Shown here one piece after another: positions 38,268 through 47,379 of a stretch of 64,000 nt of DNA. Below the pieces are notes generated by a model. It was not told where the DNA came from. It was given only the letters and a program-made list of their open reading frames with translations, and made no database searches. The stretch comes from Escherichia coli (lineage in GTDB: Bacteria > Pseudomonadota > Gammaproteobacteria > Enterobacterales > Enterobacteriaceae), in assembly GCF_030013205.1 (NCBI RefSeq), contig NZ_CP122648.1; one strand, 5' to 3'. How positions within the stretch are numbered: the stretch's first letter is position 1; each line of letters begins with the position of its first letter. A program made the position numbers and the translations under genes.

Positions 38268-38359
38268 TTTATTAACGCGATTGTAAAACTGCGGTTTTTA
38301 CTCGTTTACAACGCGTGCGCTGGACATTACCATCCTCCTCTGCGATTTATCATCGCAAT

Positions 38360-38437
38360 CAAACGACTCGGGGTGCCCTTCTGCGTGAAGGCTGAGAAAT
38401 ACCCGTATCACCTGATCTGGATAATGCCAGCGTAGGG
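38360..38437. repeat. attL: 78-bp copy of thiM TPP-riboswitch sequence (left junction of inserted element)
   Basis: Perfect 78-bp identity to 47250..47327; sequence to its left is native rcnR-thiM intergenic DNA, sequence to its right is element DNA. Confidence 0.75.
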
Positions 38438-38520
38438 GGCCAAAATAGTCTTGAAAATTATGTGGTTGTATCTCTTTTTGACCATAAATCATGCTGTTAA
38501 GGTACAAAAAGGGGTCGTTT

Positions 38521-39828
38521 ATGAGGTCAAGAACTCTCCCATACACATTTCAGCGAAACGGTAATTACTATCTACAAATCCGGCTTTCGGATGGTCGGAT
38601 ATACAAAAAATCACTTTTTACTGACAGTTATCGCGAAGCATCGGCGTTGATGATTGGCCTTACTCCGCACATTCCTTTCGTTAAATCACTCGCTACTCCG
38701 TTGCCGCAATTTAATAAGTTTGTTTCAAACTTGATCGCTTCGTCACGTAACGTAATGATTCCGTTGCCACTCCCTCAGCAATTGAACAATATTTCTAAAG
38801 AAGTTTTGCAGCTTCAACCACCAGCCAAACCGGAAAAGGTGCTAACACTTGCTGATGCGTGGGCTATGTACAAGGAGGAAAGAGGTCGAAATTGGACAAA
38901 ATCGATCTCAATGGCAAATGAGCGTTATATGGAGGTATTGCTTGTTGTCTTGGGAAAAGAAACAGACGTAACGGCAATCACCAAACAAGATATTAAGCGA
39001 GTAATGGAAACTGTCGAAAACTTACCAAAGCGTGTAGTGCAACCGTATAGGTCAATGACTATTCAGCAACTAATCGAATGTGATGATGTGCTGCCAGAGG
39101 ATTTAGTTGGTGCTGAGGCTGTACATAAGCACCTTAAAATCTACAAATCGTTATTCAAAACATTTCTGACTGAAAACAAAGATATTCTATCTAAGTCTCC
39201 GACTGATGGAATAGTAGCGGCACCATCCAAAGCTAGGTTTGGTGCATACAGTGCAGCAGAAATGAAAAAATTTGTAGGATGGGCACTAAAGCAGCCTGAT
39301 GGATGGCAGAAGTGGATCACTTTGTTGTTGGCGTACACAGGAGCCAGAAGAGGTGAGATTGCTAAACTGGAGAAGTCGCAGATCAAATTTGATGAAGATA
39401 GCCAGCGGCACTATCTTCTGATCGCGGAAAGAAGGCTGGGTAAAACTGAGAATGCTACAAGACAGGTAGTGATTCATCCCAAACTGATTGAGTGGGGGTT
39501 TCTGGATTTTGTTAACCGCCAATGGAAAGAGAAAATCTTTTCGGAAGTCTCAGGTCGAAATATGTCAAAGATAGGTAAAGTTCTTTCAGATGTTCGTGAT
39601 CAGCTTGATATTCCTTATCTTGATGATTATGGGCAGCGGCGCTTGGTGCATAGTTTCCGGCATACTATGATTTCTACTTGTTTAGCTGGTTGGGTGAGTA
39701 ATTTGGCGCATCTGCAACAGGTGGTAGGTCATGAGAAAAGCGGTTTAGGGATTACCAGACGCTATTTGCACTCTTTTCCTTTACGTTCAATTTGTTACGT
39801 GATTGATGGTTTGGACTGGTTAAATTGA
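38521..39828 (+). CDS. Tyrosine-type site-specific integrase
   Basis: ORF 38491..39828; RBS AAGGGG before ATG 38521; catalytic-region motifs ARRGEI, HSFRHT, and terminal RRYLHS tyrosine. Confidence 0.85.
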   Translation: MRSRTLPYTFQRNGNYYLQIRLSDGRIYKKSLFTDSYREASALMIGLTPHIPFVKSLATPLPQFNKFVSNLIASSRNVMIPLPLPQQLNNISKEVLQLQPPAKPEKVLTLADAWAMYKEERGRNWTKSISMANERYMEVLLVVLGKETDVTAITKQDIKRVMETVENLPKRVVQPYRSMTIQQLIECDDVLPEDLVGAEAVHKHLKIYKSLFKTFLTENKDILSKSPTDGIVAAPSKARFGAYSAAEMKKFVGWALKQPDGWQKWITLLLAYTGARRGEIAKLEKSQIKFDEDSQRHYLLIAERRLGKTENATRQVVIHPKLIEWGFLDFVNRQWKEKIFSEVSGRNMSKIGKVLSDVRDQLDIPYLDDYGQRRLVHSFRHTMISTCLAGWVSNLAHLQQVVGHEKSGLGITRRYLHSFPLRSICYVIDGLDWLN

Positions 39829-39869
39829 TGTGAGCCTCGTGAGAAAGGGAATAAATAGAGAAAATCAAG

Positions 39870-39897
39870 TTGTTACCTCATTGGCAGGGGATATAAT
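39870..39897 (+). promoter_or_regulatory. Candidate sigma70 promoter for the nuclease gene
   Basis: -35 TTGTTA (39870-39875), 16-bp spacer, perfect -10 TATAAT (39892-39897), about 30 nt upstream of the ATG. Confidence 0.4.
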
Positions 39898-39927
39898 GAC
39901 CATATTGTCATCTTGAGGAACAAAAGT

Positions 39928-41499
39928 ATGGTTGCTCGTTCTAACCTTGTAAATTTAGATGCACTGATTAAGCGTGCTGATTTAGGTTTAAAGATCCAAG
40001 ATAACTCTTCATTTGAAACGCTAAACAGTATTCCTGCAAGAGAATTGAAATCAGGAAGTGGAATTGCTGCGCTTCTGAGAAAACCAGATTTCCAGCGTGA
40101 AACAAATCATTGGGGGCCTGAGCAGGTTGTATCGCTTCTCGAATGCTACATCAATGGTGATTTGATACCTTCCGTTATTCTTTGGCGGTCTTCAACCCAT
40201 CTTTTTGTGATCGATGGTGGTCATCGTTTAAGTGCGTTACGTGCTTGGGTTGAAGATGATTATGGCGACGGTCATATATCCCATCAACTTTTTGGGCATG
40301 ATATTCCTCGTGAACAACGCCGCGCTGCAGATAGAACGAGAAAGCTTGTGAAGGAGAGGGTCGGTAGCTGGGAATATTATCAGAAGTTGCTTGCCGATGA
40401 TGCTTCATTGACCGAGGAACAGCAGAGAAGAATCAGCGTATTAACATCTCGTGGAATCTCAGTCCAATGGGTAGTGGGTGATGTAGATAAGGCAGAAACT
40501 TCATTTTTTAACATCAATATGAAGGGAACTCCTCTTGATGCTATCGAAGAGATGCTTCTAAAAAATCGCAAGAAAAGTATTCCGATAGCAACCCGAGCAA
40601 TTATTCGTGCCGGTAGAGGTCATCGCTATTGGTCGGGGTTTGATCAGAGCATTGCCCAGCAACTTGAAGATAAATCTGCAAAGCTGCATCGTTTGCTGTT
40701 CGAACCTGAAGTTGATCGCCCTATTAAAACTCTTGATCTTCCATTAGGCGGTTCTAGGGGGGTCAGGACAGCGATCCAAGTTTTGAAAGATTTCTTACTG
40801 ATCACTGATTGCAACCAGAATGGTGTTTTGAAAAAAATCGAAGCCTACCCTGATGATGCGTCGGGTGCTGATACGTTAAGAATCCTTTCCAAAGCCACAT
40901 CATTAAGCAATAGAATTACAGGCAATGGCGATGGTAGCTTGGGGCTTCATCCAGCGATTTATTTTTATGGTCCGACTGGAATCCACTCAACGCCAATGTT
41001 TCTAGGAACTGTGCTACTGGTGGCAAAACAACTCTCTAACAATAATGGTCAATTCTTTAAAGACTTCACAACAATCAGATCTAGGCTTGAGAGAATAATG
41101 ATCGAATTTAAGGACTTGATCGCAATGATAGTACAAAAACCAGGTAGTAATGTCCGAGTGGCTCGCTACTGTGATTTTTTAAATGCGGTGATCAAATCAC
41201 TCAAGCAGGGAGAGAATATTGATGAGAGTAAGCTTATCGAGCTGGCCGAATTGGAGGGGAGAATACTCTCTGGAGATTTTAAGAGAACATCAGCAAAAAT
41301 CAGCGATGAACAAAAAAGTAAGGTGTTCATTGACGTGGCTCTGCGCAACGCTTTGAAATGTCCGATTTGCCAAGGTTACCTTGATACTGAAAAGTCAGTT
41401 TCTTATGATCATATCGTACGTGTCCGTGAGGGAGGAGATGGTAATTCTGACAATGTACAGTTGACACACCCTTACTGTAACCAGTCAGTGAAGTGTTAA
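39928..41499 (+). CDS. DUF262/DGQHR (ParB-like) domain + C-terminal HNH endonuclease fusion; candidate defence nuclease
   Basis: N-terminus FQRETNHW ... FVIDGGHRLSALRAW (QR/DGQ(Q/H)R-like ParB-fold motifs); C-terminus CPICQGYLDTEKSVSYDHIVRVREGGDGNSDNVQLTHPYCNQ (HNH His-Me finger). 523 aa from ATG 39928. Confidence 0.7.
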   Translation: MVARSNLVNLDALIKRADLGLKIQDNSSFETLNSIPARELKSGSGIAALLRKPDFQRETNHWGPEQVVSLLECYINGDLIPSVILWRSSTHLFVIDGGHRLSALRAWVEDDYGDGHISHQLFGHDIPREQRRAADRTRKLVKERVGSWEYYQKLLADDASLTEEQQRRISVLTSRGISVQWVVGDVDKAETSFFNINMKGTPLDAIEEMLLKNRKKSIPIATRAIIRAGRGHRYWSGFDQSIAQQLEDKSAKLHRLLFEPEVDRPIKTLDLPLGGSRGVRTAIQVLKDFLLITDCNQNGVLKKIEAYPDDASGADTLRILSKATSLSNRITGNGDGSLGLHPAIYFYGPTGIHSTPMFLGTVLLVAKQLSNNNGQFFKDFTTIRSRLERIMIEFKDLIAMIVQKPGSNVRVARYCDFLNAVIKSLKQGENIDESKLIELAELEGRILSGDFKRTSAKISDEQKSKVFIDVALRNALKCPICQGYLDTEKSVSYDHIVRVREGGDGNSDNVQLTHPYCNQSVKC

Positions 41500-41887
41500 A
41501 ATCACGTTTCACTTTTCGTTGTCATTTGTATCGAACGTTTTTGAGAAAGGGCAGGATTGCGAGCGAGTTACCAGCGTAAACAGATAAATACTGTTTTCGT
41601 AAGCCCACTGTCGCCGCTTTCCGCTCTGCAATTTTTGCTTGTCGGGGGGCTAATTGTGGCTTTGCTTGCCATAACATTAAAAGTCAGTAATATACTGAAA
41701 ATTAATACAATACTTTTCATATATCCCATTGAATATTCAGTTCATTGCCAAATAGCAAGCGGAGCACTCTCTCTTTAACGTTGTAGTAACTTAGTTGAAC
41801 AATTTTATAATATAATTTGTCTAAGTTGGTTGATGTATCAAAGCCTTTTTCTGAAGAATGAATTGGCGTGATTACTCACGCCAGATT

Positions 41888-42235
41888 TTAAATTTCAGAA
41901 CATAGGCTAAGCGTATAGACAGCAGTTTGCCCATCATTGTTAGTCGGTCTCATAACGAAAACAGGCTGACTCCCATTATCAATGTATGTGACTGCAACCC
42001 CTCCATCAGGTGTGGCATACATTTTTGCGATGCTTTTTTGACCTATAAAATCAAGTCTCCAAGTCTTACCACCAAGATGTATTGTCATTTTTTTATCTTG
42101 TATATCAAAAGTTGAATCTACAGAAACTTTCTGACTTCCCGAGTCAATATGACCTTCCTGTATTGCTTTACAGGAAAAGGTTGTGGCGTGGCCCATCACT
42201 GGAATTAACAAAGCGGCAAATACTAGTTTTTTCAT
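41888..42235 (-). CDS. Small secreted protein of unknown function (115 aa)
   Basis: RBS GGGAGA; MKKLVFAALLIPVMGHATTFSC signal peptide; no recognisable family. Confidence 0.5.
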   Translation of the reverse strand: MKKLVFAALLIPVMGHATTFSCKAIQEGHIDSGSQKVSVDSTFDIQDKKMTIHLGGKTWRLDFIGQKSIAKMYATPDGGVAVTYIDNGSQPVFVMRPTNNDGQTAVYTLSLCSEI

Positions 42236-42345
42236 TTGTCTCCCTTGATGTGTCAAATGGATGGTGATGCTAATAATACATGATTGATTCAAAATGTCAC
42301 GATTAGTGCGTGGTTAATTGGTGCGTCAAATTGCATCTTTGTGCC

Positions 42346-42810
42346 ATGCGAAAGAATCTGAGATACCTTTTTGGACAACGAGTAAAAGAGTTCCGTATAG
42401 CTATTGGCTTAAGCCAAGAGGCCTTTGCAGATCGGTGTGGTTTTGCTCGTAGTTATATGAGTCGAATTGAGCGTGGTTGCTCTAATGCATCTCTTGATGC
42501 AATTGAGGTTCTGGCTGACGCTTTGCGTATTGAGCCTTGGCAGTTACTAGCTTCTGATTCAAGGAAAACTGATGATCAGGAGGTACTTGTTCCTTATGCT
42601 GCAGATGGGTCGTGTTTTCATCCAGGATTGGCAAGTACTCGCGATGGTTCGTTTAGAGTAGGGGAAAAATCAGCCCAGAAACGTTTCAGTTCGTTCAATG
42701 ACGCTCTCGAATACCTTCGTGGAATGGAAACCGCGAAGTGGCGTAGGCCTAATGCTAGTGGTAATTGGGGAATTGTATCTGCGGTTAAATGGGATCGACT
42801 GAATCAATAA
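42346..42810 (+). CDS. XRE-family HTH regulator with C-terminal extension
   Basis: LRYLFGQRVKEFRIAIGLSQEAFADRCGFARSYMSRIERG HTH; start could also be the GTG at 42310; divergent from secreted-protein gene. Confidence 0.65.
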   Translation: MRKNLRYLFGQRVKEFRIAIGLSQEAFADRCGFARSYMSRIERGCSNASLDAIEVLADALRIEPWQLLASDSRKTDDQEVLVPYAADGSCFHPGLASTRDGSFRVGEKSAQKRFSSFNDALEYLRGMETAKWRRPNASGNWGIVSAVKWDRLNQ

Positions 42811-42976
42811 GATATCAGTAATTTTCGGGCCACTCCACAAGGCAATAAGTGGCTTAGTGGTGATTATCGAAGGGGAATACAAGCGAGCACCTAGGCACCA
42901 TTGCAAGAACCGCTCAACGCTGAGATCAGCAAGCCCCGATTTCTGCCGACCGTCCCTGTCAAATATCAAGGAGGCA

Positions 42977-43516
42977 TTACGCCTCCTCTTCTTCCTTCTT
43001 AATTCGCTGTACCGTCGAAGGAGCAACATTAAAGATCTCGGCGGTTTTACGCACTGACACGCCATCAGAAAGGGCTTTCTTTATACCTTCTCGATCCACT
43101 GCCTTACCTTTACCACGCTTTCTAGGATTGACGGCTTGCGCTTCTCGTTTACGTTCTAACATCAGTTCACGTTCACACGTTGCCACTGCCGACAACATAG
43201 TAAGCATCATTTTTCCCATCGCGCTTGTAATGTCTGCAATGATCCCTTCTTTGTGAAAGCGAACAATTACACCACGATTATTAAGTTGTTCCACTAAGGC
43301 AAGAATGTCTAAGGTGTTACGCCCTAAACGATCAAGAGAGTGGACGTGTAAGGTGTCGCCTTCTCTCAGATAGGCTAAACACGCTTGTAAGCCTGGGCGG
43401 TTAGTGTCTTTACCAGACAGCTTATCTTCAAAGACTTTGTCGAGAGTTAGTCCTGCAAGCTGGCGATCAGTATTTTGATCTACAGTGCTCACACGCTTAT
43501 AGCCGATATTGCTCAT
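42977..43516 (-). CDS. Small serine recombinase (resolvase/invertase family)
   Basis: MSNIGYKRVSTVDQNTDRQ with catalytic Ser; C-terminal HTH; RBS AAGGGGA. Confidence 0.8.
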   Translation of the reverse strand: MSNIGYKRVSTVDQNTDRQLAGLTLDKVFEDKLSGKDTNRPGLQACLAYLREGDTLHVHSLDRLGRNTLDILALVEQLNNRGVIVRFHKEGIIADITSAMGKMMLTMLSAVATCERELMLERKREAQAVNPRKRGKGKAVDREGIKKALSDGVSVRKTAEIFNVAPSTVQRIKKEEEEA

Positions 43517-43565
43517 AAAATCCCCTTGATGTATCGATTTGGCACCACTCCAATGCAAATGAGTG

Positions 43566-43653
43566 TGTTGTATTCATTTGGTCTGTTTCAAGCCTTATGG
43601 ATACGGAATATTACACGATTTAGCTGTATTCATTTGGTATGCCTAATGGATAC
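43566..43653. promoter_or_regulatory. Two res-like palindromic sites upstream of the serine recombinase
   Basis: tgtattcatttggtctgtttcaagccttatggatacgg and tgtattcatttggtatgcctaatggatacgc; each has imperfect inverted half-sites GTATTCAT / ATGGATAC. Confidence 0.4.
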
Positions 43654-43785
43654 GCAGGGGGATAGATTAAATGGTGTTCTGTTTATACAGGTTTATTTGT
43701 TAGATCAACAAGTTGGCATTTCTAAACAGATGTTTGAACGTTGCCAAATGCCTTGACAACACAAGAAAATGGCTTGCTATGAACG

Positions 43786-44100
43786 CATTACACGAAATAA
43801 GGCTATAAAAACAAAATAAATTTTAAAATTTGCACAAAAACGAGAAAACTCGTTCGACAAATAATAGATTGGTTTTTAATCGACAATTTCTGACAATTTC
43901 TGATGGTGCTCTGTAAACCGCATTACACAAGGCTTTGCGAAAGTGATGTAAAAGTGAAGAAAGTTAACATTGCACTTTGAAGCCATTTTTCATTGGATTT
44001 TTTAGTAGGGAATTACACAGGGAATAGAGAGCATTATTCTATGATTTACACAGGGAATATAGGGGATTATGGCACACACATAGAAAGGCATTACACAGAG
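43786..44100. repeat. Iteron-like direct repeats, family A (TTACACAGGGAAT-type, 5 copies)
   Basis: cattacac(g/a) at 43786 and 43921, aattacacagggaat at 44011, tttacacagggaat at 44046, cattacacagag at 44089. Confidence 0.5.
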
Positions 44101-44163
44101 TGAGTGCTATGTGATGATTGGTAGTAACGGTAGGTCACTGTGAGCTACCCCCCACAGAATTCT

Positions 44164-44340
44164 GTTACCCCTATCAAGTCTAACAGGGGTTTATAAAGAA
44201 TAATAAACCGATGATACCCCTATCAATATTGATACCCCTATTAGCTTTGATATGACTACCCCTATCAAAACTGATACCCGATAAGAATAAGTTAATAAGA
44301 ATAATTAAATAATATTCTTTATATCTATATATATGATCTT
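44164..44340. repeat. Iteron cluster, family B (GATACCCCTATCAA x5) plus AT-rich unwinding-like tract: candidate oriV
   Basis: tacccctat at 44166, 44215, 44233, 44257 and tacccgat at 44275 (spacing 18-49 bp), followed by about 60 bp of nearly pure A/T (44281-44340). Confidence 0.55.
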
Positions 44341-45503
44341 TTTGCCTTCCGGCGTTAGCTTCACTCTCTGGCAAGCAGCCTTACTCCGCTATCTTTGGGC
44401 TTCGTGGCTGGCCCGTTCCGCTCACACCGAAAGCAAAGCGTTACTCTTCTTCGTGTAACTATCGTTGGCGGTAACGCCACACGAAGAAATACTATTGCGC
44501 TGTGCGCAGTAAGAGTAATCACCTAACCAATCACCTGATTGCTTACGTGTTAACTCTCTCTAACTCTTAATTACCCTCCTACATTTAATAACTCTATTAT
44601 TCTCTGTAGTTGTGTAATTACTCGAAGAGAGAGCGGCTAAAGCTCAATTACACTCTGCTTTCCTCGTGTAATTTCACTAAGCCTCAATACAATTTCACTT
44701 CCTACATTCTGTAGTCGTGTAATAGTTTTCGGTGGGGAAAAGCCAGAGGCGACACCGAAAGAAAATTCTGATCTTATTAATCTTATCTATCTTAGTTAAT
44801 CTTCTTACTTACTTTATCTACTTTATTATTAATAATAGCTTTATAAGCTCTCTGTGTAGCTCTCTGACGCAAGAAACAGCATTCAGGAAGGGAATCACCT
44901 TAGAAAAGTGTTCTTTGCGTCATAATGTGTTTTATGAAGGATTCAGAGGTGTTTCATAACACAAGGTATAGAGGATATTTTAGTTAATTAAAAATAAGGG
45001 GGCTAAATGCTTCTCTAACAGCATTAAGCAGGGTAGAGAATGGAAATGCATTGCCTACGTATATATAAACTCACTACAAGGCTTTACAGAGCGTTTTATA
45101 AAGTAACTAATCTAAGAACTCTCTGTTTTATATCTATCATCATCTTTCCATCATCTAACAAATACAAAATAAGCCCCTTAAATAAGCCTCTGGCGAGCTA
45201 AACAGCCATTACATAAGGGAATGTATTTCTTTTATCAAAACTTCGTTAGAACGCGTTTTAGAGCGTTTTATACAATAAGGAAGAATAGGACCGTCCGCAA
45301 GAGCACGAATTGCTAAGAAAGAATGTAAACGCATGAAAAATATCAGATTTTTTATGAAAATATATTGACAAATGTTTCTTTATATGTAATAATAGGTATT
45401 AGAGAGACAGAAAAACATTCTTCTCTAAATAATCAAAATCAATGCACTTTGAAGCCGTCAGGCTTGCAAGGTGTTTTTCTTTTAACTGAATAAGGAGTTT
45501 TTT

Positions 45504-45692
45504 ATGAAATGGTTTACACCGGAACACGTCGTAGAGGCATTTAAAAAAGGTGAGCTAACACGACATCAAGTAGTAATGAATCGTAATATGGCAAGGAGTC
45601 GAGGTTATCCAGAGCGTGAAAAATGTTTCGATGCAGCACTAAAAATTATTGATAAATTAAGAAAAAATGAAAAAGGATCTGAAACAGAGTAA
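45504..45692 (+). CDS. Hypothetical small protein (62 aa)
   Basis: Strong RBS AAGGAG 7 nt upstream of ATG; basic small protein, no family recognised. Confidence 0.45.
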   Translation: MKWFTPEHVVEAFKKGELTRHQVVMNRNMARSRGYPEREKCFDAALKIIDKLRKNEKGSETE

Positions 45693-45711
45693 AGAAGAGA
45701 AGGAGAAAACT

Positions 45712-45882
45712 ATGAGCGAAACTACAGAAAAGAAAAGACAACCACGCACTTGCTTTCATATTCCTGATGAAGTATTTCAGGTGTTGTTTAAAGAAGCCAG
45801 AAGTAAACGTATCACTGTTACAGATTACATTCTTGATATGTTGAAAAGAGAGGCTGAAACACTCTCAAATAAAAGCAAGTGA
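45712..45882 (+). CDS. Ribbon-helix-helix (CopG/Arc-like) DNA-binding protein
   Basis: RBS AGGAG; PRTCFHIPDEVFQVLFKEARSKRITVTDYILDMLKRE fits beta-alpha-alpha RHH pattern. Confidence 0.5.
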   Translation: MSETTEKKRQPRTCFHIPDEVFQVLFKEARSKRITVTDYILDMLKREAETLSNKSK

Positions 45883-45936
45883 TTTTTATCACCATAGTAG
45901 CGCCGTAGAGCGTGATTACATCAAGGAGCTTTTTTA

Positions 45937-46599
45937 ATGATTAAACATACAAAACCTTTCTTAGGAATAGATTATGACTTACTAGCAATCACTTCCCTAG
46001 TGATTAACGGCAAAACAAAAGAAGTAAAACTACATCATAAGATCATTTATTCTTATTTGTTAAGTTTATCTGGCACATATCAAAAGGTAACACCATCTTT
46101 GAAAGGTATTGGTGAGCGGTTAGGAGTAGGTACAGATCAGACGGTACGCCGTCATATCAAAGATCTTGTTTCTTTTGGATGGTTGAAGATTGAGGAAAGG
46201 GCAGGTAGCACAAATGCTTATATTGTCCTTCCTTATGAACAAGAAGCCCAGACACAACAAGAAGCTACCGTTAAAGCTGTTCAGGAACAGCTTCCCCCTA
46301 CGGAAGATAATAAAGAGTTTTCTTTTGATGTTCTTGATGATTGGGATGCGCCTTTACCTTGGGAAATGGAAGAAACGCCATCTGATGAAAAGGTAGCTAA
46401 TGATAATGAGGAGGATGTGTTAGAGAATTTTGCCTCTCTTATCATCCAGGAGAAACACACAAGAACAGGAGGGGCATCATTTATAGAATTTGCAACATCG
46501 TTAGCCTGTAAGCACAGGATAAAGCTACCAAATGGTATTGAGGCATATTTTGCTAAGAAACATCCCAAAGTATATGAAGACTTTGATATTCCATTTTAA
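45937..46599 (+). CDS. Winged-helix protein, candidate replication initiator
   Basis: RBS AAGGAG; wHTH-like SLKGIGERLGVGTDQTVRRHIKDLVSFGWLKIEE; acidic C-terminal half; sits next to iteron region. Confidence 0.5.
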   Translation: MIKHTKPFLGIDYDLLAITSLVINGKTKEVKLHHKIIYSYLLSLSGTYQKVTPSLKGIGERLGVGTDQTVRRHIKDLVSFGWLKIEERAGSTNAYIVLPYEQEAQTQQEATVKAVQEQLPPTEDNKEFSFDVLDDWDAPLPWEMEETPSDEKVANDNEEDVLENFASLIIQEKHTRTGGASFIEFATSLACKHRIKLPNGIEAYFAKKHPKVYEDFDIPF

Positions 46600-46794
46600 T
46601 AAGGAGGGTTATGATTCAATATTTAGTAAAAAATAAAGTAGAATTCATCTATTCCACTCTCTAAAAATCTATCTGTGTAATATAAAATGAAAACATTATG
46701 GTATTAGCTATGTATTGGTTATTGTTCTTTCTGGCCTTAGAAACATATGCAAGTAAGTCTGGAAAACGAAAGTAATATATTGATGATTTGTTTG

Positions 46795-47052
46795 TTATAA
46801 CTTCGTGGTGTCAAGTCCAGCAGTTTTGAGTCGCTCGGTAAGATTTCTCATTTTGCTGAACTCTGTACCAAAGCTGGCTTTAAGTCCTACACCTTCGCAA
46901 AACTCTTTTGCCGTGACGTTTTTCAGATGGTCAACATATTTGGTCATCTGGAGGTGCATTTCCATCGTTTGGCTATTTCGTGATGCGCTGCTAATGGCTT
47001 GCTTAATGTTCTCGTAGATCTGGGTTCTGTCATTGTTTATCCCACCTATCAA
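46795..47052 (-). CDS. Hypothetical small protein (85 aa) at element right end
   Basis: Minus-strand ORF adjacent to attR; function unknown (could be an excision/regulatory factor). Confidence 0.35.
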   Translation of the reverse strand: MIGGINNDRTQIYENIKQAISSASRNSQTMEMHLQMTKYVDHLKNVTAKEFCEGVGLKASFGTEFSKMRNLTERLKTAGLDTTKL

Positions 47053-47245
47053 ATTTAGAAAAATAATATTAATTAGCTAATTAATATAATCAATGGTTTT
47101 CACCATCTGAATGATAGCCGTTAATTGTTTCTTTTTCATTCCTTCTATGGGGTACAAAATGGGGTACACAGAGAAGAAGCAATTAATGGAGGCGAGCTTG
47201 CATCTGCAAGCCACTTCCCCTAAGCTGGCACAAAATATAGAGATT

Positions 47246-47379
47246 CAACCAAACGACTCGGGGTGCCCTTCTGCGTGAAGGCTGAGAAATACCCGTATCA
47301 CCTGATCTGGATAATGCCAGCGTAGGGAAGTCACGGACCACCAGGTCATTGCTTCTTCACGTTATGGCAGGAGCAAACT
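47246..47379 (+). promoter_or_regulatory. TPP (thi-box) riboswitch controlling thiMD
   Basis: Contains the canonical thiM aptamer sequence CAAACGACTCGGGGTGCCCTTCTGCGTGAAGGCTGAGAAATACCCGTATCACCTGATCTGGATAATGCCAGCGTAGGGAAGTC and expression platform up to the SD (ggcaggag). Confidence 0.85.
47250..47327. repeat. attR: 78-bp direct repeat (native riboswitch copy adjoining thiM)
   Basis: Identical to 38360..38437; downstream sequence continues as native thiM leader. Confidence 0.75.

What the first reader, a model, noticed from the sequence alone, without database searches (positions are those of the whole stretch)
43760..46600. Plasmid-like replication module inside the chromosomal element
About 1.7 kb of AT-rich non-coding DNA holds two iteron families (TTACACAGGGAAT-like x5; GATACCCCTATCAA x5 at 18-49 bp spacing) followed by a nearly pure A/T tract, as in iteron-type oriV. 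Downstream are three RBS-equipped genes: a 62-aa protein, a ribbon-helix-helix protein and a 220-aa winged-helix protein that could be the initiator. Together with the integrase this suggests an element that can replicate episomally after excision.
Basis: partly seen in the sequence, partly recalled or inferred. Interest (0 to 1): 0.6.

Follow-up and report, generated by a model that had tools for sequence, protein, structure and literature searches.

The report
Phage-satellite replication origin and initiator
The region is very probably the replication origin and its matching initiator protein of a small E. coli island from a family of predicted phage satellites, whose origin-binding domain has been copied into nucleases of phi92-like virulent phages.

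Summary
Window 43560-45503 is 1.94 kb without conserved ORFs. It contains four full and one truncated GATACCCCTATCAA repeats (44164-44285), then the most AT-rich 50 bp of the region (44281-44330, 90% AT). Downstream lie a strong promoter and three genes of 62 aa, 56 aa (ribbon-helix-helix) and 220 aa.

The reading as origin plus initiator is supported, but the model is a phage satellite, not a plasmid.

- In 16 related E. coli elements there are five N-terminal domain types. Each goes with its own semi-palindromic iteron array. That array is always the last one before the AT tract, whatever the backbone.
- Four phi92-like virulent phages carry these same domains fused to a GIY-YIG-type nuclease. 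This is the architecture of ICP1 Odn, which cuts PLE origins.

Barth, Dunham and Seed (2023) had already predicted this satellite family and its RepA. Added here are the origin map, the iteron/domain pairing, an SSB-like DFDIPF tail, and an 8.9-kb thiM variant with GmrSD cargo and no capsid genes. Replication itself is untested.

The parts
38360..38437 (+). attL core: left copy of a perfect 78-bp direct repeat inside the TPP riboswitch aptamer
   Evidence: blastn of the two junctions gives 78/78 identical. Rfam TPP hit at 38359-38454.
38521..39828 (+). tyrosine integrase of the island (context, outside the finding)
   Evidence: RefSeq annotation of the identical K_EC180 locus. Pfam Phage_integrase is recorded on the same gene in L022.
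39928..41499 (+). GmrSD-type restriction endonuclease, defence cargo of the island
   Evidence: An HNH endonuclease occupies the same slot in relative L002.
42977..43516 (-). small serine recombinase (resolvase/invertase type)
   Evidence: PHROG 125 'DNA invertase', E 5e-56. Pfam Resolvase is recorded on the same gene in L022.
43530..43655 (.). res-like site: three imperfect palindromic subsites (TGTATyCATTTGG ... CCTwATGGATACG) with different half-site spacing
   Evidence: Repeat families D9 and D19. Three copies are also present in L012. Sequence. The function is inferred.
43786..44100 (+). conserved block A carrying five + strand ATTACAC-type motifs (43788, 43923, 44013, 44046, 44091)
   Evidence: Conserved at 76-88% in all relatives. 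The protein that binds it is unknown.
44120..44167 (+). single non-cognate iterons: type E half-site 44120-44129, type B 44129-44147, type D 44154-44167
   Evidence: Read from the sequence against the types defined.
44164..44285 (+). cognate (type A) iteron array: GATACCCCTATCAA-like repeats at 44164, 44213, 44231, 44255 and a truncated copy at 44273; each has the inverted sub-repeat GATA-CCCC-TATC
   Evidence: The same array (5 copies) occurs in L012, whose Rep also has the type A N-terminal domain.
44281..44330 (.). AT-rich tract (90% AT), the presumed DNA-unwinding element
   Evidence: In relatives, the 60 bp sampled shortly after the last cognate iteron are 83-93% AT in the 13 loci where this measure applied. 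The function is inferred.
44339..44560 (.). GC-rich (50%) hairpin-forming segment just past the AT tract
   Evidence: Folded as single-stranded DNA: -34.7 kcal/mol, z = -3.4 against shuffles. Its role is unknown.
44453..44723 (-). four minus-strand ATTACAC motifs (44453, 44612, 44666, 44717) mirroring those of block A across the iterons and AT tract
45365..45393 (+). strong sigma-70 promoter (TTGACA, 17-nt spacer, AATAAT, with TG upstream of the -10) for the 62aa-RHH-rep operon
   Evidence: 11 of 12 consensus positions; the best site in the region.
45444..45484 (+). leader hairpin followed by a U-run (terminator or attenuator-like) between the promoter and the first gene
   Evidence: RNA fold -27.3 kcal/mol, z = -2.9.
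45504..45692 (+). 62-aa protein of unknown function, conserved in all relatives
   Evidence: No PHROG or NCBIfam hit.
45712..45882 (+).
45937..46599 (+). rep: 220-aa RepA_N-like initiator. Winged helix at residues 9-100, disordered acidic linker 103-156, helical C-terminal domain 156-216, C-terminal DFDIPF
46795..47052 (-). 85-aa gene (PHROG 30666, function unknown) at the right end of the island
47250..47327 (+). attR core: right copy of the 78-bp repeat, part of the complete thiM TPP riboswitch

Best explanation
Window 44120-46599 is the replicon of an integrated phage-satellite-like island (38438-47327), built like the RepA/ori module of the Vibrio cholerae satellite PLE.

Proposed mechanism:
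1. The 220-aa protein is a RepA_N-type initiator.
2. Its N-terminal winged-helix domain, probably as a dimer, binds the four to five semi-palindromic GATA-CCCC-TATC iterons at 44164-44285.
3. Loading on this array opens the adjacent 90% AT tract (44281-44330).
4. The protein has no helicase or primase domain. Its acidic linker, C-terminal helical domain and SSB-like DFDIPF tip therefore recruit replication proteins made by the host or by an infecting phi92-like (Stephanstirmvirinae) phage.
5. The operon is driven by a strong promoter (45365-45393) behind a leader terminator. The small 56-aa protein upstream of rep is the likely regulator.

What is shown computationally: the repeats and their significance, the fold of the N-terminal domain, the iteron/domain covariation, and the phage nuclease homologies.

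What is inferred: binding, unwinding, recruitment, helper dependence, and the roles of the small proteins.

For: 2. Covariation. In 16 elements at thiM, thrW, tRNA-Gly, leuX and other sites there are five N-terminal domain types, A to E. Each element carries 3-5 tandem copies of its own iteron type:
- A: GATACCCCTATCAA
- B: GGTAGGTCAcTGTGAgCTA
- C: cCTAGGAAATGAGTTCC
- D: ACAGAAnnnTGTTA
- E: GTAACGAnnnGTTAC
The cognate array is always the last one before the AT tract. Types B and C each occur on both backbones, that is with both versions of the 0.8-kb block between iterons and genes and with both C-terminal domain families. The iterons follow the N-terminal domain, not the backbone.

3. Iteron form. 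All five types are semi-palindromic direct repeats, as described for RepA_N iterons (PMC7145576).

4. Phage mirror. Phage muut gene 154 is identical to the window protein over residues 1-115 (94.7% nucleotide identity over 430 bp). Downstream it carries a second winged helix of type C and a C-terminal nuclease (PHROG 681 'endonuclease', 2e-18; Pfam MUG113 4.6e-4; T5orf172 weak at 0.11). Phage inny carries E+C; Mt1B1_P17 and BI-EHEC carry D+C. This is the architecture of ICP1 Odn, which binds and cuts PLE origin iterons (PMC8263062). PMC10448857 drew the same inference for inny, muut and Mt1B1_P17. The muut genome has no type A site, so the target of its type A domain lies outside the phage.

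5. C-terminal tail. 113 of the 120 best homologs end in DFD[IL]PF, and the other C-terminal family ends in YDS[IL]PF. The SSB C-terminal interaction motif is DDDIPF (PMC5872125).
Against: - No experiment of any kind supports this for this family.
- By sequence alone the protein matches only generic HTH_36 and MarR-like winged helices, and Pfam RepA_N is not hit.
- No excised circle was found. Contigs from Logan, ENA and JGI metagenomes that carry the element are all collinear with the integrated form, and no attP junction was found.
- The iterons lie 1.2 kb from the rep operon. The DNA in between (hairpins, ATTACAC motifs) is unexplained.
- Several relatives carry additional whole arrays of non-cognate iterons, which a simple origin model does not require.
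- Phage muut has type-C-like palindromes at its own early promoters. At least the type C domain may therefore also have a transcriptional role.
- This 8.9-kb copy lacks the capsid, tape-measure and baseplate genes of the full 12-kb elements, so it may be a decaying remnant.
Confidence: 0.8

Rival explanations
1. Truly plasmid-like, helper-independent replicon. Once excised, Rep plus the iterons drive theta replication with host proteins only, so the island can persist as an episome.
For: The SSB-like DFDIPF tail could recruit host SSB partners such as PriA, DnaG or the chi subunit (PMC5872125). A resolvase with a res-like site next to the origin is a typical plasmid multimer-resolution feature. 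The promoter is strong.
Against: Of 840 matching places in 5,426 complete E. coli genomes, 838 are chromosomal and 2 are on plasmids. Plasmid databases hold only weak partial hits. No circular or permuted contig was found. In the closest characterised system, PLE, RepA is not sufficient without phage (PMC7145576). A leader terminator follows the promoter. There are no DnaA boxes.
Confidence: 0.2
2. Transcriptional regulator and operator array. The 220-aa protein is a winged-helix transcription factor, and the repeats are operators controlling a promoter that reads into the downstream non-coding DNA or the operon. On this reading it is not an origin.
For: Sequence matches in the PDB are to MarR-type regulators. 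RefSeq names some relatives 'transcriptional regulator'. Type-C-like palindromes sit just downstream of sigma-70 early promoters in phage muut.
Against: No promoter-like site lies at or just after the iterons. The nearest gene is 1.2 kb away. An array of 4-5 same-orientation repeats abutting a 90% AT tract is origin-like. The best structural neighbours are replication initiators. The C-terminal SSB-like tip has no obvious role in transcription. The phage nucleases that copy the domain fit the origin-directed nuclease model (PMC8263062, PMC10448857).
Confidence: 0.08
3. Decoy or remnant. The repeats persist as bait that titrates or misdirects phage nucleases, or the whole module is an inactive relic in a decaying island kept only for its GmrSD cargo.
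For: The island lacks all structural genes of the 12-kb relatives. Single and multiple non-cognate iterons accumulate upstream of the cognate array.
Against: rep is intact and nearly identical in at least 40 genomes. The promoter, iterons and AT tract are intact. The module is conserved at about 92% on other backbones, while its specificity parts are swapped together, which implies selection on the pairing.
Confidence: 0.07

Closest known systems
[quoted passage not shown]
   Same: The initiator has a RepA_N-fold N-terminal domain, and PLE RepA (4ro3) is the top structural hit. It has no helicase or primase domain. The iterons lie in a large non-coding region. The N-terminal domain and the origin swap together between elements, while the C-terminal part follows the backbone. 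A virulent myovirus carries the same DNA-binding domain fused to a GIY-YIG/T5orf172-type nuclease.
   Different: There is no detectable sequence similarity to PLE RepA (21% identity in the structural alignment). The hosts and helper lineages differ (E. coli with phi92-like phages against V. cholerae with ICP1). The integrase is a tyrosine recombinase rather than a large serine recombinase. There are five specificity types rather than two. The C-terminus carries an SSB-like tail, not reported for PLE. Nothing here has been tested experimentally.
[quoted passage not shown]
   Same: The Rep family is the same, and the window Rep N-terminal domain is the one copied in muut. The 62aa-RHH-rep operon and the non-coding block are shared at about 92% with 12-kb elements at thrW, leuX and tRNA-Gly.
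   Different: The window element is 8.9 kb and sits in the thiM riboswitch. It has another tyrosine integrase and GmrSD cargo, and lacks the MCP, decoration, tape-measure and baseplate genes. Accessions of thiM-type elements were not found in that paper's supplementary tables. The paper's main text does not mention iterons or locate the origin. It also states that the second RepA_N domain of the phage nucleases has no satellite homolog, whereas type C satellites match it at 83-90%.
RepA_N plasmid initiators of Gram-positive bacteria (pSK41 and pTZ2162 RepA; PDB 4pql, 4pt7, 4pta, 5kbj)
   Different: Pfam RepA_N (PF06970) is not matched. The element is integrated rather than a plasmid. The host is Gram-negative.
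Classical iteron plasmids (Rep_3 family: pSC101, F, R6K, RK2-type oriV)
   Same: Tandem iterons lie next to an AT-rich tract, and the initiator gene is in cis with a small regulator gene upstream.
   Different: There is no Rep_3 two-winged-helix initiator and no DnaA box or IHF consensus. The element is almost never found on plasmids.
Lambda O / ori-lambda
   Same: PHROG 'O-like' profiles match the N-terminal half. A winged-helix initiator binds about four iterons beside an AT-rich tract and depends on other proteins for helicase loading.
   Different: The origin is not inside the initiator gene. There is no P-like loader gene. Pfam Phage_rep_O is not hit.

Membership tests
[quoted passage not shown]
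RepA_N-type initiator/iteron replicon (PLE RepA, pSK41 RepA) | Sequence match to Pfam RepA_N (PF06970) | tested here: not met
   Pfam gives only HTH_36 at 1.9e-7. PLE RepA likewise lacks evident primary-sequence similarity to the family and was assigned by structure (PMC7145576).
RepA_N-type initiator/iteron replicon (PLE RepA, pSK41 RepA) | Semi-palindromic direct-repeat iterons at a cognate origin that change together with the N-terminal domain | tested here: met
   Five N-terminal domain types pair with five iteron types in 16 of 16 loci. A strict pattern count gives 15 of 16, with L002 degenerate. Types B and C occur on two backbones each.
RepA_N-type initiator/iteron replicon (PLE RepA, pSK41 RepA) | Initiator binds the iterons, and both are required for replication | not testable with these tools
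   Needs EMSA or footprinting and copy-number assays.
RepA_N-type initiator/iteron replicon (PLE RepA, pSK41 RepA) | No helicase or primase domain; lineage-specific C-terminal domain | tested here: met
   The 220-aa protein has no catalytic domain by Pfam, PHROG or NCBIfam. Its C-terminal domain is a small helical bundle found only in Escherichia relatives.
Putative E. coli satellites of PMC10448857 | Rep N-terminal domain nearly identical to the RepA_N domain of a phage RepA_N-T5orf172 nuclease | tested here: met
   Residues 1-115 are identical to muut gene 154, with 94.7% nucleotide identity over 430 bp.
Putative E. coli satellites of PMC10448857 | Flanked by attachment-site repeats, with an integrase at one end | tested here: met
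   A 78-bp perfect direct repeat and a tyrosine integrase at 38521-39828.
Putative E. coli satellites of PMC10448857 | Major capsid, decoration, tape-measure and baseplate-hub genes; at least 10 kb of homology to the representative elements | tested here: not met
   The window island has none of these genes. They are present in L003, L004, L005, L007 and L012. Shared DNA is about 3-4 kb.
Rep_3 iteron plasmids | Rep_3 initiator and DnaA boxes in oriV | tested here: not met
   No Rep_3 hit. No TTWTNCACA in 43500-45520.
PICI / SaPI-type satellites | Pri-Rep helicase/primase initiator, alpA or stl regulators, terS or ppi-type packaging genes | tested here: not met
   None was found among the island proteins.

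The most novel reading that the evidence does not exclude
The initiators of this family end in a mimic of the SSB C-terminal tip (DFDIPF or YDSIPF against DDDIPF of SSB). This tip would be conserved across two unrelated C-terminal domain families and absent from the phage nucleases. On this reading the initiator loads a replisome by presenting an SSB-like tail at the opened origin, so recruiting SSB partners (PriA, DnaG, the chi subunit, or phage equivalents). That would be a replisome-recruitment route not described for RepA_N or other iteron initiators. It would also let the capsid-less 8.9-kb thiM variant amplify itself, and its GmrSD defence gene, on phage attack without being a transmissible satellite.
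Probability: 0.25. Interest if true: 0.7.

Novelty: new member of a known kind. Interest (0 to 1): 0.5.

Why it matters
If confirmed, E. coli would offer a genetically tractable counterpart of the PLE/ICP1 system. That system comprises satellites of virulent phages with swappable origin/initiator modules, and phage nucleases that copy the initiator's DNA-binding domain.

The origin map and the five iteron/domain pairs found here give direct reagents. They predict which phage nuclease should cut which island: muut types A and C, inny E and C, Mt1B1_P17 and BI-EHEC D and C, and none so far for type B.

The thiM variant suggests that such replicons can be retained by small defence islands that have lost all virion genes. 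This bears on how the 'integrase-only' defence islands of E. coli move or are amplified (PMC10121019). How RepA_N initiators recruit a replisome is an open question (PMC7145576), and the SSB-like tail offers a testable handle on it.

Tried and rejected
- Structured RNA in the 1.9-kb non-coding block: no Rfam family at gathering score or at E up to 5. Some segments fold better than shuffles, but the two backbone versions of the block are not alignable, so covariation could not be tested.
- Hidden genes: the ORFs in the block are short and change frame between relatives.
- DnaA boxes and the IHF consensus: none.
- Plasmid origin: the Rep protein has only weak partial hits in 72,556 plasmids.
- Phage origin of the non-coding DNA: no real match in 50,697 phage records.
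- Invertible segment controlled by the serine recombinase: no inverted-orientation HSPs between the window and six relatives.
- Sakai prophage Sp1 as a possible identity for the thrW elements: the paper describes Sp1 as a degraded lambdoid prophage, so it is unrelated.
- Excised circular forms: island-size contigs in Logan and ENA are in chromosomal order. An attP-junction pattern found nothing in JGI metagenomes. Eleven metagenome contigs with type A iterons are all collinear with the integrated element and have no terminal overlap. Assemblies break at the att repeats, so this negative result is weak.
- Sequence-only PDB searches: only generic winged helices were returned.
Full report
**What the window is.** The window is E. 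coli chromosome, 100% identical to strain K_EC180 and to many porcine ETEC strains over 43560-46700. The finding lies in an 8.9-kb island inserted in the leader of thiM. Two TPP riboswitch hits (38359-38454 and 47249-47345) contain a perfect 78-bp direct repeat (38360-37 and 47250-327), which marks the attachment sites. From left to right the island carries:
- a tyrosine integrase;
- a GmrSD restriction enzyme;
- a 115-aa gene on the minus strand;
- an XRE-type regulator;
- a small serine recombinase on the minus strand;
- 1.94 kb without genes;
- three small genes on the plus strand;
- an 85-aa gene on the minus strand.

**The observation.** It is confirmed.
- The GATACCCCTATCAA family has four copies with at most two mismatches (44164, 44213, 44231, 44255) and a truncated fifth at 44273. 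The whole window has five matches against 0.24 expected, and no shuffle reached five.
- The array ends at the most AT-rich 50 bp of the non-coding region (44281-44330, 90% AT).
- The TTACACAGGGAAT family has only two exact copies. Its core is real, though: ATTACAC occurs 9 times in 1.9 kb against 4 times in 54 kb of background. It lies on the plus strand left of the iterons and on the minus strand right of the AT tract.
- A near-consensus sigma-70 promoter (45365-45393) and a leader hairpin with a U-run precede the 62-aa gene, the 56-aa gene and the 220-aa gene.

**The 220-aa protein.**
- By sequence it is only an HTH_36 winged helix, with PHROG matches to phage replication initiators at 1e-10.
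- An AlphaFold model has a confident winged helix (residues 9-100), a disordered acidic linker (103-156) and a small helical C-terminal domain.
- The protein therefore has the fold of RepA_N initiators, although Pfam RepA_N is not matched. The same was true of PLE RepA.

**Comparative evidence.** The non-coding block and the operon recur in 729 of 5,426 complete E. coli genomes, almost always on the chromosome. Most relatives are 12-kb elements at thrW, leuX, tRNA-Gly or other sites. These also carry a major capsid protein, a tape-measure-like protein, a baseplate-like protein and another integrase.

I compared 16 loci.
- Their Rep proteins fall into five N-terminal domain types (A to E), joined to two families of C-terminal domain.
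- Each locus has, directly after a conserved block, 3-5 tandem copies of a repeat that is specific to its N-terminal type. That cognate array is always the last one before an AT-rich tract.
- Types B and C each occur on both backbone versions, and the iterons follow the N-terminal domain, not the backbone.
- All five iterons contain inverted sub-repeats, as described for RepA_N iterons (PMC7145576).
- The same pattern was shown experimentally to define the PLE replicon (PMC8263062).

**The phage link.** A tblastn search of phage genomes found the window protein's first 115 residues, unchanged, at the start of gene 154 of the virulent phage muut, a phi92-like Justusliebigvirus (94.7% nucleotide identity over 430 bp).
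- That phage protein continues with a second winged helix of type C and a C-terminal domain. The C-terminal domain matches PHROG 681 'endonuclease' (2e-18) and Pfam MUG113, and weakly T5orf172.
- Phage inny has E+C. Mt1B1_P17 and BI-EHEC have D+C.
- The small gene upstream of the nuclease is a homolog of the island's 56-aa protein (44% identity).
- The muut genome has no type A, B, D or E site.
- This is the architecture of ICP1 Odn, a RepA_N domain fused to a T5orf172 nuclease that cleaves PLE origins (PMC8263062).

**What was already known.** After reaching this point I found that Barth, Dunham and Seed (PMC10448857) had reported these three coliphage nucleases and 224 putative E. coli satellites encoding the matching RepA proteins, and had noted the modular N-terminal domains. 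So the family and its initiator are known as predictions. That paper's main text does not mention iterons or place the origin. Accessions of thiM-type elements were not found in its supplementary tables.

**What is added here.**
- The position and anatomy of the origin.
- The one-to-one pairing of five iteron types with five N-terminal domains.
- The finding that the nucleases' second domain matches type C satellites at 83-90%, although the paper reports no satellite homolog for it.
- A conserved C-terminal D-x-[IL]-P-F tip. It is present in 113 of the 120 best homologs as DFD[IL]PF, and as YDS[IL]PF in the other C-terminal family. It resembles the SSB interaction motif DDDIPF (PMC5872125) and is absent from the phage nucleases.
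- A capsid-less 8.9-kb variant in the thiM riboswitch with a defence cargo slot: GmrSD here, an HNH endonuclease in L002.

**Mechanism and its limits.** I propose that Rep binds the type A iterons and opens the AT tract. Having no helicase or primase of its own, it would recruit host or helper-phage replication proteins through its C-terminal part.
- None of this is tested.
- No excised circles were seen in assemblies, but assemblies break at the att repeats, so this is weak evidence.
- Unexplained features are the ATTACAC motifs, the hairpin-rich GC segment beyond the AT tract, the non-cognate iterons and arrays, and type-C-like palindromes at muut early promoters. The last keeps a regulatory role for the type C domain open.

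**Verdict.** It is a satellite-type (RepA_N/PLE-like) replicon rather than a plasmid one. It belongs to a family already predicted in the literature, of which this copy is a reduced variant.

Noticed in passing
window 38360-38437 and 47250-47327: The island is inserted inside the thiM TPP riboswitch and duplicates 78 bp of the aptamer. The left copy, with the native upstream DNA, now precedes the island integrase. thiMD keeps a complete riboswitch but has island DNA upstream. Both integrase and thiMD expression may be altered.
   Followed up: partly
window 43530-43655, next to the recombinase gene 42977-43516: Three imperfect palindromic subsites with different half-site spacing lie directly upstream of a small serine recombinase. 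This looks like a res site with its resolvase, a multimer-resolution feature of circular replicons. PMC10448857 instead suggests that the serine recombinase is alternative integration machinery.
   Followed up: partly
window 45444-45484 and 43968-43984: A terminator-like hairpin with a U-run sits in the leader between the strong promoter and the 62-aa gene. Its 5' arm (CATTGCACTTTGAAGCC) is repeated 1.47 kb upstream in the conserved block A. This could be attenuation or antitermination control of rep.
   Followed up: partly
window 43786-44100 (+) and 44453-44723 (-): ATTACAC motifs flank the iterons and AT tract in mirrored orientation. Relatives with the other backbone carry ATTGCAC/TTGTGCAAT repeats instead. 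The binding protein is unknown; the 62-aa or the 56-aa protein are candidates.
   Followed up: partly
window 44120-44167; L003 9460-9800; L012 9560-9620; L014 3080-3210: Single copies of iteron types E, B and D precede the cognate type A array in the window. Some relatives carry whole non-cognate arrays upstream of the cognate one. These could be relics of module swapping, or sites for other elements' Rep proteins or for phage nucleases.
   Followed up: partly
L008 5001-5999 (muut gene 154); L028 724-1827 (inny gene 184); L021 9668-10654 (Mt1B1_P17); L029 from 868 (BI-EHEC, unannotated): All four phage nucleases share a second winged helix of type C. It is 83-90% identical to the Rep N-terminal domain of type C satellites (L002, L005, L015, L020). 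The published description says the second domain has no detectable satellite homolog. No phage nuclease with a type B domain was seen.
   Followed up: yes
phage muut MN850573 at 66500, 67359, 69368, 71677 and 72256 (L027 16500-22268): Five copies of the palindrome GCGGGAAATGGTTTCCCGC, which has the same core as type C iterons, lie just downstream of consensus sigma-70 promoters of early genes. They could be operators for the type C domain, RNA hairpins, or self-targets that need protection.
   Followed up: partly
window 46582-46599 and the C-termini of all relatives: Rep proteins end in DFD[IL]PF or YDS[IL]PF, which resembles the SSB C-terminal tip DDDIPF. The phage nucleases lack this ending.
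   Followed up: partly
window 39928-41499; L002 6332-7057: The slot between the integrase and the 115-aa gene holds GmrSD in the window and an HNH endonuclease in the thiM element of strain EC17GD31. This looks like a defence-cargo hotspot in the mini-element.
   Followed up: no
L004 12848-13842; L007 13152-14159; L005 11871-12856: The 12-kb relatives have a second gene-free stretch of about 1 kb upstream of the capsid gene cluster. It is absent from the window island.
   Followed up: no
L010 (IMG/VR contig 3300011574_000035) 8913-10488: A more distant relative, 74-77% identical in the type A iteron region and in rep, occurs in a 27-kb viral-catalogue contig. Its context was not examined.
   Followed up: no
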